DNA of 64,000 nt from Candidatus Woesearchaeota archaeon (GTDB taxonomy: Archaea > Nanobdellota > Nanobdellia > Woesearchaeales > ARS49). Every line of letters starts with the position of its first letter. The first letter of the stretch is position 1. Below are positions 19,765 to 53,086 of this stretch, one piece after another. The stretch spans positions 15,137 through 79,136 of the forward strand of contig JBBILB010000002.1 of assembly GCA_037445145.1 (NCBI GenBank), in the 5' to 3' direction. The position numbers were made by a program, and so were the translations under genes. The notes under the pieces are model-generated. The model searched no databases and was not told where the DNA came from. It worked only from the letters and a program-made list of their open reading frames with translations.

Positions 19765-19894
19765 GCCCGGGTAGCGAAGTGGCCAAACGCGCTGGACTTA
19801 AGACGCCCGCAACCCTTCCAAAGCGATCAAGGATTGTTTGCTGGAGAAATCCAGTCCCGCAAGGGGTTCGCCGGTTCGAATCCGGCCCCGGGCA
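19765..19894 (+). tRNA. tRNA-Leu(UAA) with a 46-nt intron after position 37
   Basis: Acceptor GCCCGGG/CCCGGGC plus A73. Anticodon stem CTGGA/TCCAG, loop CTTAAGA, anticodon TAA at 19799-19801. Intron at about 19803-19848. Long variable arm and T-arm GCCGG-TTCGAAT-CCGGC. Confidence 0.85.
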
Positions 19895-25901: not shown

Positions 25902-26579
25902 GTGAATCCGACGGCAAACACAGAAGAGGGGTTTCCGCTGAGCCCGCAGCCCCTGCCAACGCACGTTGCAATAGCGATTTTCTCGCAGGAGCATGTACAG
26001 CCCGAGACAACACTCCGCAACATAATGGAACTGATGACGCTGGCAGTAAACCTCAGGATTCCAATGCTGACCATCCACTTCCCCTCAAGCGCGACAGAAA
26101 GCGAGATCAACATGATAACAACGATATTCACCGCACTAATGCACGAGCAGTTCCTTGACAGAAACCAGGTAAAAATCTCGGTGCTGGGCAAGTGGTACGA
26201 GCTTCCCGAGCGAGCGCTTGAGCCGATAAAGCACGTAATCTCCTCAACAAGCGAATACGACCGGTGCTTCGTGAACTTCTGCGTGCGGTACGAAGGGCAG
26301 GATGACATTGTTGACGGCGCAAAACTGCTTGCAAAGAATGTCCAGCTGGGAAAGCTCGCGCCAGAACAAATAACAAAAGCAAAACTTAAGGAGGCAATGC
26401 TCACGTCCACGCTGCTGCCGCCAAGCCTGATAATATACCCTGCACCTGCGCGAAAAACAGGAGGGGTGCTTTTGTGGGATTCTGCACACGCGCTTATCCA
26501 CTTTTCCGACTTTGCGTGGAAGGACTTCGGCAAGGAAGCATTTTTAAACAGCCTCTCGTTCTTCCAGCGCCATAGTTAA
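25902..26579 (+). CDS. Undecaprenyl-diphosphate-synthase-fold protein with degenerate catalytic motifs
   Basis: Collinear with UppS throughout (THVAIAI.., RIPMLTIHFPSS, KISVLGKWYELP, NFCVRYEGQDDIVDGAKLL, LIIYPAPARKTGGVLLWDSAHALIHFSDFAWKDF). However, DGNxRWA is IFSQEHV and RTSGExR is YPAPARK. Confidence 0.65.
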   Translation: MNPTANTEEGFPLSPQPLPTHVAIAIFSQEHVQPETTLRNIMELMTLAVNLRIPMLTIHFPSSATESEINMITTIFTALMHEQFLDRNQVKISVLGKWYELPERALEPIKHVISSTSEYDRCFVNFCVRYEGQDDIVDGAKLLAKNVQLGKLAPEQITKAKLKEAMLTSTLLPPSLIIYPAPARKTGGVLLWDSAHALIHFSDFAWKDFGKEAFLNSLSFFQRHS

Positions 26580-26591
26580 GACTAAATTCTA

Positions 26592-27124
26592 CCGGCTCTG
26601 GTGAAAATCTCGCAAAATTAAAATAACCCATGTGCCGTGTGAGCGACAACACCGGGAGTGGGGAGAGTCTCCTGCCACGAGCAAAGAAGCAAAACTAATA
26701 CGTAAAGTTAAGCGTTTGTTGCGGCAGGCGCGGACGCCTCGCTGGCTGCACCACTTTAAACCAAAGAAGTGCGAGTTCTGGCAGCACGCAATTGCCCTGC
26801 TTGCGAGGGCAATCTGCCAACTAAGTTATCGTCGAGTATACTAGCTGTTGCGCCAGCCCGGGCAGGACGTGCCGATGTGTTCTGCGCAGCGAAGCAGTGC
26901 ATGAACACTGCTTCGATATGGAAATTGCCAGCACGATTCCGAAAAGAACAGCCTCAAAACAAATCATTGCAGAGAAATGGCAGAATGCAAGTTCAGCAGC
27001 ATAAAAAGGCAGTTCGGCAGCACAACCATTGCCGCCGCACGAAAACAACCCGCGCAGAATTGTCCGCGCAGTGTATTGTGAGCAATATGTTCTCGCGCCT
27101 GATCAGACTTTTTCACCAGAGCCG
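26592..27124. mobile_element. MITE-like non-coding element (alternatively a ~530-nt structured RNA)
   Basis: 15-bp perfect inverted termini (26593-26607 CGGCTCTGGTGAAAA and 27110-27124 TTTTCACCAGAGCCG). ATTCTA lies on both outer flanks (26586-26591 and 27125-27130). No credible ORF. The interior has many perfect hairpins. Confidence 0.5.
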
Positions 27125-27137
27125 ATTCTATCGTAAG

Positions 27138-27146
27138 TTTTATAAA
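27138..27146 (+). promoter_or_regulatory. TATA box for the rpl7ae operon
   Basis: TTTTATAAA about 100 nt upstream of the rpl7ae ATG, which implies a roughly 75-nt 5' UTR. Confidence 0.4.
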
Positions 27147-27182
27147 CAAACCATAGATTTTGCAATTAAACCGATGAAACAA

Positions 27183-27202
27183 TGATGCCCGCAAAGGGCA
27201 GA
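27183..27202 (+). promoter_or_regulatory. Box C'/D'-like K-loop candidate in the rpl7ae leader
   Basis: UGAUG-CCC-GCAAA-GGG-CAGA. The GA/GA positions fit tandem sheared pairs closing a 3-bp GC stem. It is followed by hairpin GTGAGG-N12-CCTCAC and the RBS GGAAGGAGG. Confidence 0.3.
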
Positions 27203-27246
27203 GTGAGGTGTGATTCTTATCCTCACAGTATCGGAAGGAGGCTAAC

Positions 27247-27573
27247 ATGACAGACAAAGGACCTGCGGAAAAAGCTCTCGAGGCAGTTGAGCTTGCGAGA
27301 AGCACAGGCAAGATAAAGAAAGGCACCAACGAAACAACAAAAGCTTTGGAAAGGGGGACCGCAAAGCTCGTCGTCTACGCAAAAGACGTCCAGCCTGCAG
27401 AGGTTGTGATGCACATTCCCCTCCTCGCAAAGGAAAAAGGAGTGCCCTGCATTGAAGTGCCGAGCAAGGAAGAACTTGGCGCAGCAGCAGGAATAAAGGT
27501 GCCAACAGGAGCAATAGCAATCATCACAGAAGGGGAAGCAAAAGCAATAATAAAAGACATTAAAGGAGCCTGA
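27247..27573 (+). CDS. rpl7ae: 50S ribosomal protein L7Ae
   Basis: [30 protein letters not shown]...[25 protein letters not shown] is the canonical L7Ae sequence pattern. Confidence 0.95.
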
Positions 27574-52120: not shown

Positions 52121-53086
52121 ATGTACGACGTAATTACTCTTGGTTCTGGAACTATTGACGTATTCGTAAAAACAAAAAAACCGGAAATACTAAGACACAA
52201 AGGACATAATGACGTCTGCTACGCAATCGGCGAGAAAATACTTGTTGAGGACCTGCACGTTGACACAGGCGGAGGAGGCACAAACACAGCCGTCGCATTC
52301 TCACGGCTTGGCCTGAGGACAGCATGGATCGGCGAAGTCGGTACAGACCTGCACGCAAAAGCAGTCCTTGACGAGATGAAGCGCGAAAAAGTGGACTTCC
52401 TCGGCGGAAAGGGAAGGGGAGTGACAGGCTACAGCGTCATCCTCACGGGGCTTGAGCATGACAGGAGCATACTGACATTCAAAGGGGTCAATGACAAGCT
52501 CGCGGATTATGAAGTGCCGTGGAAAAAGCTCAGTACAAAATGGTTTTATTTCAGCGCAATGATGAACCAGAGCTTCGAAACCCTCAAGAAAGCGGTGCTG
52601 TTCGCAAAGAAAAAAGGAATCAGGTACGCATTCAACCCAAGCATGTACATTGCAAAAATGAGAGTCAAGGCGCTCAAGCCAATAATTGATGACTGCGACC
52701 TCCTCATAATGAACAAGGAAGAAGCCCAAGCACTCACGGGAAAGAAAACGGCAGGATGCAGGGAACTGCTTGCCGAACTGCAAAAACACGCAAAGATAGC
52801 AGTAATTACAGATGGTCCAAGAACTGTACACGCACATAACGGAATCAAGCTTTACGAGCTTATCCCTCCGCGCATAAAAGTCGTTGAAACAACAGGGGCA
52901 GGAGATGCATTCGCAGCAGGCATGCTGGCAGGAATAATCATCAAGAAGGACATAAAAGAAGCAATGCAGTGGGGAATGGCAGAGGCAGCAGCAGTCATCC
53001 AGCAAATCGGGGCAAAGCAGAACCTCCTGACAAGAAGGCAAATTGAGAAGGCGCCAAAGGCAAGAGTAATTATTACGAGGCTCTAA
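52121..53086 (+). CDS. PfkB-family carbohydrate kinase
   Basis: GGGGTNTAVAFSRLG and TTGAGDAFAAGMLAG. ATG at 52121 is preferred over the listed upstream start. Confidence 0.8.
   Translation: MYDVITLGSGTIDVFVKTKKPEILRHKGHNDVCYAIGEKILVEDLHVDTGGGGTNTAVAFSRLGLRTAWIGEVGTDLHAKAVLDEMKREKVDFLGGKGRGVTGYSVILTGLEHDRSILTFKGVNDKLADYEVPWKKLSTKWFYFSAMMNQSFETLKKAVLFAKKKGIRYAFNPSMYIAKMRVKALKPIIDDCDLLIMNKEEAQALTGKKTAGCRELLAELQKHAKIAVITDGPRTVHAHNGIKLYELIPPRIKVVETTGAGDAFAAGMLAGIIIKKDIKEAMQWGMAEAAAVIQQIGAKQNLLTRRQIEKAPKARVIITRL

What the first reader, a model, noticed from the sequence alone, without database searches (positions are those of the whole stretch)
26586..27130. 533-bp ORF-less element with perfect 15-bp inverted termini and flanking ATTCTA repeats, upstream of rpl7ae
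This is the only long non-coding stretch in the window, about 670 bp where most gaps without a tRNA are well under 200 bp. Nt 26593-26607 (CGGCTCTGGTGAAAA) are the exact reverse complement of 27110-27124. The hexamer ATTCTA lies just outside both arms: at 26586-26591, one nt from the left arm, and at 27125-27130, abutting the right arm.

TIRs plus a short direct repeat plus no ORF is MITE architecture. Deleting the element and one ATTCTA would leave a normal ~130-bp intergenic region with the rpl7ae TATA box intact.

The interior is much more structured than I would expect for a decayed transposon:
- a 10-bp perfect hairpin at 26890-26915 (loop CATGAA)
- a 6+8-bp hairpin with a 6-nt bulge at 26779-26819
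- GCAC-CA-CTTT/AAAG-AA-GTGC at 26748-26772
- GCG..AGGCG-CGGA-CGCCT-CGC at 26721-26742
- an internal repeat GGCAGCAC-N-ATTGCC (26780-26797 and 27016-27034)
- three copies of GCGCAG

A ~530-nt structured RNA closed by a 15-bp stem is therefore an equally live reading. No transposase is present in the window.
Basis: seen in the sequence. Interest (0 to 1): 0.7.

Follow-up and report, generated by a model that had tools for sequence, protein, structure and literature searches.

The report
Dead, internally deleted IS5-family insertion sequence
The 530-bp "element" upstream of rpl7ae is the decayed, internally deleted remnant of an ordinary IS5-family insertion sequence common in Woesearchaeota (DPANN archaea); it is not a new structured RNA, and there is no sign that it is an amplified MITE family.

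Summary
In detail: there is a perfect 15-bp inverted repeat, flanking ATTCTA, and no Rfam match.

The interior is not anonymous. It is a transposase pseudogene. It aligns end to end (73-83% nt identity) with ~890-905-bp insertion sequences on eight metagenome contigs. It differs from them by two internal deletions (~318 bp and ~46 bp), a lost start codon, a premature stop and frameshifts. The deletions remove two of the three catalytic motifs.

A repaired relative's transposase passes the NCBIfam IS5-family cut-off (153.7 bits against 140). Sixty-one related loci were found, most in MAGs labelled Woesearchaeota or other Nanoarchaeota. Of 35 copies examined, 21 have perfect 9-bp target duplications flanking GGC...GCC termini.

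Delimited the same way, the window element is 26594-27123. Its flanks are AATTCTACC and GATTCTATC, matching 7/9 in register.

Syntenic relatives carry the uninterrupted target (C)ATTCTATCG, which is an empty site. They also carry a 302-aa gene that the window has lost.

The interior alone folds no better than shuffles (z = -1.0).

No second copy of the deleted form was found. Verdict: a non-autonomous IS relic. The MITE reading is partly right and the RNA reading is wrong. Low interest.

The parts
25902..26579 (+). uppS-like gene (undecaprenyl diphosphate synthase family), the upstream neighbour. Its stop codon lies 14 nt before the IS end.
   Evidence: Pfam Prenyltransf E=4e-25. 80-91% identical homologues occur in Woesearchaeota MAGs.
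26585..26593 (.). Left copy of the 9-bp target-site duplication (AATTCTACC).
   Evidence: Matches the right flank 7/9 in register when the IS is delimited at GGC...GCC, as in 21/35 family copies with perfect 9-bp duplications.
26594..26607 (+). Left terminal inverted repeat (GGCTCTGGTGAAAA).
Evidence: The first 13 nt are identical in L001, L065 and L069. Most family copies begin GGCTCTG.
26594..27123 (+). The whole IS relic (530 bp), an internally deleted, non-autonomous IS5-family insertion sequence.
   Evidence: End-to-end alignment to ~890-905-bp elements in L001-L003, L065, L068 and L069 at 73-83% nt identity, with two gaps in the window copy.
26608..26676 (+). Degraded leader of the transposase gene. 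Relatives carry two tandem hairpins here. The window copy has a 5-nt deletion in hairpin 2.
   Evidence: window leader z=-0.9, against -2.0 to -7.7 in 26 of the 27 other copies. Alignment.
26677..26886 (+). Transposase pseudogene, N-terminal codons 1-70. The start codon ATG has become ACG (26677-26679). There is an in-frame TAG at 26842-26844.
   Evidence: tblastn with the repaired relative: aa 2-70, 74% identity, E=4e-28. BLASTP to P0001: 74% over 62 aa. Alignment.
26886..26887 (.). Junction of the ~318-bp internal deletion. It removes roughly codons 71-176, including the conserved D(S/A)T and ADKGYD motifs.
   Evidence: (the blocks break at 26887) and the protein alignment.
26887..26944 (+). 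Middle transposase remnant (codons SEAVHEHCFD...) in a different frame. It contains the 10-bp hairpin at 26890-26915.
26944..26956 (.). Site of the second internal deletion (~46 bp missing relative to L068/L069).
   Evidence: window 26944->26956 corresponds to L069 771->829. Alignment.
26956..27109 (+). C-terminal transposase remnant (…REMAECKFSSIKRQFGS…AELSAQCIVSNMFSRL…), carrying a frameshift.
   Evidence: NCBIfam NF033579 profile positions 246-288 of 289, E=3.5e-4, on a peptide in which I repaired one frameshift by hand. tblastn aa 210-238, 59% identity, E=9e-5.
27110..27123 (-). Right terminal inverted repeat (TTTTCACCAGAGCC).
27124..27132 (.). Right copy of the target-site duplication (GATTCTATC). 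This is native sequence: relatives have a single CATTCTATC(G) here.
27139..27146 (+). rpl7ae TATA-like box (TTTATAAA), untouched by the insertion. It is identical in L071.
   Evidence: The promoter role is inferred from position and conservation, not tested.
27247..27573 (+). rpl7ae, the downstream neighbour.
   Evidence: Pfam Ribosomal_L7Ae E=2e-28.

Best explanation
The element is a relic of an IS5-family insertion sequence. The parent was about 895 bp long, with 14-bp GGC-terminated inverted repeats and one DDE transposase of about 275 aa.

Proposed history:
1. A transposase cut the target NATTCTAYC with a 9-bp stagger. The target lay about 6 nt downstream of an ancestral 302-aa gene and 15 nt upstream of the rpl7ae TATA box. 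The IS was pasted in, duplicating the 9 bp.
2. The copy later decayed. It lost its start codon, gained a premature stop and frameshifts, and suffered internal deletions of ~318 bp and ~46 bp. These removed the first two catalytic acidic motifs.
3. In the same lineage the neighbouring 302-aa gene was deleted.

What remains is 530 bp with intact ends but no enzyme. It cannot move on its own. It could move only if a cognate transposase were supplied in trans.

Shown: homology, deletions, termini, the family's duplication length, the empty site in relatives.
Inferred: the order of events, and that the relic is currently inert.
For: - Transposase remnants. A pseudo-peptide from the element retrieves three DDE_Tnp_1 proteins at 67-74% identity.
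- DNA homology. Their contigs (L001-L003) and five more (L065-L069) match the element at 73-83% nt identity. L001, L002, L065, L068 and L069 align with it TIR to TIR, with two gaps in the window copy only. L003, L066 and L067 cover only its left part.
- Family assignment. A relative's transposase with one stop repaired scores 153.7 bits against the 140-bit cut-off of NCBIfam NF033579 (IS5 family), covering profile positions 4-288 of 289. It hits Pfam DDE_Tnp_1 at 1e-17.
- Family properties. There are 61 related loci, most of them in MAGs labelled Woesearchaeota or other Nanoarchaeota. The 34 family copies examined besides the window are 877-924 bp. Of the 35 copies including the window, 21 have perfect 9/9 target duplications.
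- Window flanks. Delimited the same way, they match 7/9.
- Empty site. L071 is syntenic at ~84% nt identity and L074 at 72-82%. Both carry a single uninterrupted (C)ATTCTATCGTAAG... upstream of the rpl7ae TATA box.
- No RNA signal. The interior folding z is -1.0 and Rfam is negative.
Against: - The duplication is imperfect (7/9) while the 14-bp TIRs are perfect. This is slightly odd for an old relic, though the numbers are small.
- No copy closer than ~83% nt identity was found, so the actual parent is unknown.
- The rest of the genome is unavailable, so I cannot say whether a cognate active IS or further deleted copies exist there.
- One frameshift was repaired by hand for the weak C-terminal NCBIfam hit. 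The N-terminal match needed no repair.
Confidence: 0.93

Rival explanations
1. It is a member of an active, amplified MITE family: a short non-autonomous element repeatedly mobilised in trans by a full-length IS elsewhere in the same genome.
For: It has intact perfect 14-bp TIRs, is small (530 bp) and has no functional transposase. Related full-length IS copies are actively expanding in some Woesearchaeota genomes; for example, 12 of the copies examined from MFD03726.bin.1.7 have perfect duplications.
Against: There is only one copy in the 64-kb window. None of the five metagenome loci found with conserved-block patterns shares its deletions. The 138-aa ORF spanning both deletion junctions has no homologue among 5.8 billion proteins. 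The element carries many private substitutions, a degraded leader and a 7/9 duplication, which suggests an old, static copy.
Confidence: 0.07
2. It is a ~530-nt structured non-coding RNA closed by a 15-bp stem.
For: The whole element folds better than shuffles (z -3.8 and -4.5). Two internal hairpins show compensatory changes among six related IS copies.
Against: The stability excess disappears when the terminal repeat is removed (z -1.0). There is no Rfam match. The sequence is homologous throughout to a transposase gene and its ends. The locus is empty in syntenic relatives. The covarying hairpins are properties of the parent transposase gene, not of this locus.
Confidence: 0.02
3. The relic has been co-opted as a regulatory spacer or insulator that affects rpl7ae (or uppS) expression.
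For: It lies 15 nt upstream of the rpl7ae TATA-like box and 14 nt downstream of the uppS stop. The TIRs are retained perfectly.
Against: The native TATA box and the conserved leader are the same as in relatives that lack the insertion. Nothing indicates selection on the relic, which has accumulated stops, frameshifts and deletions. It is absent from all six syntenic relatives examined.
Confidence: 0.04

Closest known systems
IS5-family insertion sequences (NCBIfam NF033579 'IS5 family transposase'; Pfam DDE_Tnp_1 PF01609)
   Same: The relatives' transposase passes the family cut-off over the whole profile. They have a single ORF, short TIRs, a size of about 0.9 kb and a fixed-length target duplication.
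   Different: The window copy is a pseudogene lacking about 40% of the element, including two catalytic motifs. Its own peptide scores only ~20-22 bits.
IS903 group of the IS5 family (from memory of the ISfinder classification: 9-bp duplications, GGC termini)
   Same: 9-bp duplications and GGC...GCC termini are seen in 21/35 copies.
   Different: Subgroup membership was not tested phylogenetically. The family here is roughly 0.9 kb, is found mostly in DPANN archaeal MAGs, and is far from bacterial IS903 in sequence. I could not retrieve the ISfinder table to verify the group definition.
Haloarchaeal and methanogen IS5-family elements (ISH19-like and ISHma10-like, as annotated on plasmids)
   Same: These are the best annotated tblastn matches of the repaired transposase. 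They cover 70-92% of the protein and are archaeal.
   Different: Identity is only 27-35% at the amino-acid level. The termini and duplication length of those elements were not compared here.
Prokaryotic MITEs (for example the Sulfolobus SM1-SM4 families)
   Same: Short, TIR-bounded, flanked by a duplication, with no working transposase, and derived from an IS.
   Different: MITEs are by description multicopy and mobilised in trans (review PMC10969869). Only one copy of this deleted form is known, and it still carries long recognisable coding remnants.

Membership tests
IS5-family insertion sequence | Encodes, or derives from, a DDE transposase of the IS5 / DDE_Tnp_1 type | tested here: met
   Remnants are 74% identical to the N-terminus of relatives' transposase. 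A repaired relative scores 153.7 bits against a cut-off of 140 on NF033579. The window copy itself is a pseudogene (20-22 bits).
IS5-family insertion sequence | Terminal inverted repeats shared with family members | tested here: met
   14-bp perfect TIRs, GGCTCTGGTGAAAA. Most family copies begin GGCTCTG.
IS5-family insertion sequence | Target-site duplication of the family's characteristic length | tested here: met
   The family makes 9-bp duplications (21/35 perfect). The window flanks match 7/9 in register.
IS5-family insertion sequence | Insertion polymorphism (empty site in relatives) | tested here: met
   L071 and L074 carry a single uninterrupted ATTCTATCG / GTTCTATCA at the homologous position.
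IS5-family insertion sequence | Intact catalytic DDE triad (autonomy) | tested here: not met
   The ~318-bp deletion removes the D(S/A)T and ADKGYD regions. The start codon is lost and there are stops and frameshifts.
MITE | Short, TIR-bounded, flanked by a duplication, no functional transposase | tested here: met
   530 bp.
MITE | Multicopy: several copies of the same short form at different sites | tested here: inconclusive
   There is no second copy in the window, in the metagenome pattern scan, or by the junction-ORF protein search. The rest of the source genome could not be searched.
MITE | Mobilised in trans by a cognate transposase in the same genome | not testable with these tools
   There is no full-length copy in the window, and the source genome is not in the collections.
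Known structured RNAs (Rfam: RNase P, SRP RNA and others) | Covariance-model match at or near the gathering score | tested here: not met
   Only tRNAs pass gathering thresholds in the window. In the region the best hits have E=3.9-7.5, far below gathering.
IS903 group of the IS5 family | 9-bp duplication and GGC termini (definition from memory) | tested here: met
IS903 group of the IS5 family | Transposase clusters phylogenetically with IS903-group transposases | not tested
   No reference set of IS903-group proteins was available. The nearest annotated hits are haloarchaeal IS5-family elements at 27-35% identity.

The most novel reading that the evidence does not exclude
This DPANN IS5 subfamily may carry an undescribed post-transcriptional control of its transposase. 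Two features point to it:
- Two tandem leader hairpins. The second pairs the Shine-Dalgarno-like GGTGG/GGAGG with the bases abutting the ATG.
- Two intragenic mRNA hairpins that keep pairing through compensatory changes.

The window relic, with perfect TIRs, might then be a still-mobilisable MITE precursor in a reduced Woesearchaeote genome.
Probability: 0.15. Interest if true: 0.3.

Novelty: new member of a known kind. Interest (0 to 1): 0.12.

Why it matters
It matters little beyond annotation. The stretch should be labelled as an IS5-family pseudo-element, not as a candidate ncRNA or a novel MITE.

There are minor points of value:
- It documents an IS5-family lineage that is widespread, and in places actively expanding, in small DPANN genomes.
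- It fixes that lineage's termini (GGC...GCC) and its 9-bp duplication.
- It marks a locus where an insertion and the loss of a conserved 302-aa gene occurred side by side in one Woesearchaeote lineage.

Tried and rejected
- Rfam at gathering and at E<=10 found nothing relevant.
- Pfam on the raw ORFs of the element gave no hit. Homology appeared only after I read the frames by eye and searched the large protein collection.
- An exact look-up of the window's L7Ae protein, to find the source contig, found nothing on record.
- IS-end-mediated adjacent deletion was considered as the cause of the orf302 loss. Such deletions are common for IS903 according to PMC11708052. I rejected it because the 11 nt left of the IS do not continue the relatives' sequence after uppS (my count: 3/11 matches). 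Instead they resemble the relatives' sequence just after the orf302 stop plus the target site. A left duplication copy therefore survives.
- Recombination between two IS copies was rejected for the same reason.
- A second long inverted repeat at 52131-53072 (19 nt, 84% complementary) simply brackets a 351-aa ORF that looks like a sugar kinase to my eye. I treated it as chance.
- I tried by eye to fit a canonical K-turn to the rpl7ae leader and could not. This is left open.
- Literature searches for the ISfinder subgroup table did not retrieve it, so the subgroup definitions are quoted from memory.

Full report
**Observation**

Arms 26593-26607 and 27110-27124 are 15 nt and perfectly complementary. 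ATTCTA sits at 26586-26591 and 27125-27130. This is the only perfect inverted repeat of 14 nt or more with arms within 2 kb in the window.

The flanking genes are an undecaprenyl-diphosphate-synthase-family gene (25902-26579) and rpl7ae (27247-27573). Rfam finds only tRNAs in the window at gathering thresholds. In the region itself it finds nothing better than E=3.9.

**What the interior is**

I translated the element in six frames. The + strand carries pieces that look like the N- and C-termini of an IS5-type DDE transposase.
- A hand-joined C-terminal peptide hits the very end of NCBIfam NF033579 (IS5 family transposase, profile positions 246-288 of 289, E=3.5e-4).
- A search of the 5.8-billion-protein collection with the joined remnants returned three DDE_Tnp_1 proteins. 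They are 67-74% identical over the N-terminal ~60 residues.
- The contigs that encode them (L001-L003) match the element at 73-78% nt identity. L001 and L002 align with it from one inverted repeat to the other.
- In that alignment the window copy has two gaps, of ~318 bp after 26886 and ~46 bp near 26944-26956.
- It has also lost the start codon (ATG to ACG at 26677-26679), has an in-frame TAG at 26842-26844, and changes frame twice.
- The large deletion removes the regions carrying the first two conserved acidic motifs (D(S/A)T and ADKGYD).
- A metagenome pattern scan added five closer relatives at 80-83% identity. Three are full length and two are interrupted by another insertion. None shares the window's deletions.

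**The family**

A relative's transposase with one in-frame stop repaired scores 153.7 bits on NF033579 (cut-off 140) across the whole profile. It also hits Pfam DDE_Tnp_1 at 1e-17.

A scan of one genome per prokaryotic species found 61 loci. Most are in MAGs labelled Woesearchaeota or other Nanoarchaeota, and some are in bins labelled Methanosarcinales. One MAG has 13 of the loci.

Of the 35 copies delimited at their GGC...GCC termini, the 34 other than the window are 877-924 bp. Twenty-one of the 35 have perfect 9-bp direct repeats immediately outside the termini. The family therefore makes 9-bp target duplications.

Delimited the same way, the window element is 26594-27123, with 14-bp perfect TIRs. 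Its 9-bp flanks, AATTCTACC and GATTCTATC, match 7/9 in register. My binomial estimate of the chance of that is about 1.3e-3. The C at 26593 and the G at 27124 belong to the duplication, not to the repeat.

**Empty site and neighbourhood**

Homologues of the upstream UppS-like protein at 70-91% identity are labelled Woesearchaeota. Their contigs are syntenic with the window. L070 and L071 match at about 84% nt identity and L074 at 72-82%.
- Homology to L071 stops at window 26581 and resumes at 27125.
- In L071 and L074 the sequence (C)ATTCTATCG/GTTCTATCA occurs once, uninterrupted. In L071 it runs straight into the same TAAGTTTTATAAAC and conserved leader as in the window. L074 has about 50 extra nt before its own TATA-like box, followed by the same leader. 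This is a classical empty site.
- Five of six relatives also carry a 302-303-aa gene of unknown function between uppS and rpl7ae. The window has no trace of it.
- The 11 nt between the uppS stop region and the IS (TAAATTCTACC) do not continue the relatives' sequence after uppS. They resemble the relatives' orf302 stop, spacer and target (TAAAAACGCATTCTATC).

I therefore infer two separate events: an insertion into the target just downstream of orf302, and a deletion of orf302 that spared the left duplication copy. An IS-end adjacent deletion, or recombination between two IS copies, would not leave that copy.

**The RNA reading**

The whole element folds better than shuffles (z -3.8 and -4.5). 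Without the terminal repeat the interior is ordinary (z -1.0; 15 of 100 shuffles fold at least as well).

The listed hairpins fall in coding remnants. The hairpin at 26890-26915 encodes SEAVHEHCFD and the one at 26779-26819 encodes FWQHAIALLxxAICQ.

These two hairpins are shared by the close relatives and keep pairing through compensatory changes. Three pairs, or five cells, change on both sides. Overall 96.7% of cells are paired, and the covariation score exceeds all but 3 of 500 shuffles (six sequences). They seem to be a property of the parent transposase gene in this subfamily, not of a new RNA at this locus. In the wider family, by eye, they are not consistently present.

**Is it a MITE?**

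Architecturally yes: it is short, TIR-bounded, flanked by a duplication and has no enzyme. As a family there is no evidence:
- It is single-copy in the window.
- No relative shares its junctions.
- The 138-aa ORF spanning both junctions has no homologue in the protein collection.
- MITEs are described as multicopy and trans-mobilised (PMC10969869).

The rest of the genome could not be searched. The window's L7Ae is not on record.

**Comparison with known elements**

The element belongs to the IS5 family by the transposase model. The 9-bp duplications and GGC ends match what I recall for the IS903 group. I could not retrieve the ISfinder table to confirm that definition.

The nearest annotated relatives on plasmids are haloarchaeal and methanogen IS5-family transposases (ISH19-like and ISHma10-like) at 27-35% identity.

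**Verdict**

This is an ordinary, decayed, non-autonomous IS5-family relic in a Woesearchaeote genome. The structured-RNA alternative is not supported. It is a new member of a known kind, and interest is low.

Noticed in passing
window 26580-26593; L071:4671-5579, L074:4671-5582, L076:3162-4073, L078:3165-4076: A conserved 302-303-aa gene of unknown function lies between uppS and rpl7ae in five of six syntenic relatives. It overlaps the uppS stop and has no significant Pfam hit. It is completely missing from the window, right next to the IS relic. L077 has only a 131-aa ORF at that position.
   Followed up: partly
leaders of full-length family copies, e.g. L001:423-478, L014:2953-3000, L036:2953-3000: Almost all full-length copies have two tandem hairpins between the left TIR and the transposase ATG. 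Hairpin 1 is about 8-13 bp and its sequence differs between members. Hairpin 2 is about 6-12 bp, usually GGTGG...CCACC, and abuts the ATG. Leader folding z is -2.0 to -7.7 in 26 of the 27 copies other than the window. This is probably translational control by sequestering the ribosome-binding site. It is degraded in the window relic.
   Followed up: partly
window 26779-26819 and 26890-26915 (and the homologous positions in L001-L003, L065, L068): Two hairpins inside the transposase coding sequence keep pairing among six related copies through compensatory changes. One position shows C-G, U-G and U-A; others show G-C and A-U. Three covarying pairs.
   Followed up: yes
window 27171-27246: The rpl7ae 5' leader is conserved in six genomes. 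It has an outer helix, a variable hairpin with compensatory changes, a fixed GUGAGG/CCUCAC hairpin and a box-C-like AUGAUG. It could be an L7Ae autoregulatory leader, which from memory is known in other archaea. I could not fit a canonical K-turn by eye.
   Followed up: partly
L070:5595-5686: L070 is the closest relative (91% UppS identity). Its sequence diverges from all the others immediately after ATTCTATCG, and its contig ends 92 nt later. A different repeat may be inserted at the same target site.
   Followed up: partly
L066:~2280-2665 and L067:~600-990: A copy of the same IS subfamily is interrupted after codon ~73 by what reads like an IS200/IS605-type tnpA (MKHYAHKVGVNVHHLEWCTKYRYKMF...). 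This is an element nested within an element.
   Followed up: no
L015-L018, L020, L022, L024-L027, L053 (MAG MFD03726.bin.1.7, contigs CAWIGF010000001/3): A single Woesearchaeota MAG carries 13 of the loci found. The 12 examined are 890 bp, have the same 14-bp ends, and each has a perfect 9-bp duplication. This points to a recent burst of transposition in a small DPANN genome.
   Followed up: partly
L019, L045, L055 (bins labelled Kosmotogaceae, Bacteroidetes, Gammaproteobacteria) and L008, L012, L014, L023, L036 (bins labelled Methanosarcinales): Family members occur on contigs of bins assigned to taxa outside DPANN. The contigs in the bacterial bins are short. This could be mis-binning or horizontal transfer.
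   Followed up: no
window 19765-19894: A tRNA match spans 130 nt, which implies an intron-containing tRNA gene.
   Followed up: no
window 52131-52149 / 53054-53072: A 19-nt inverted repeat (84% complementary) brackets a 351-aa ORF that looks like a sugar kinase. I judged it a chance match.
   Followed up: partly
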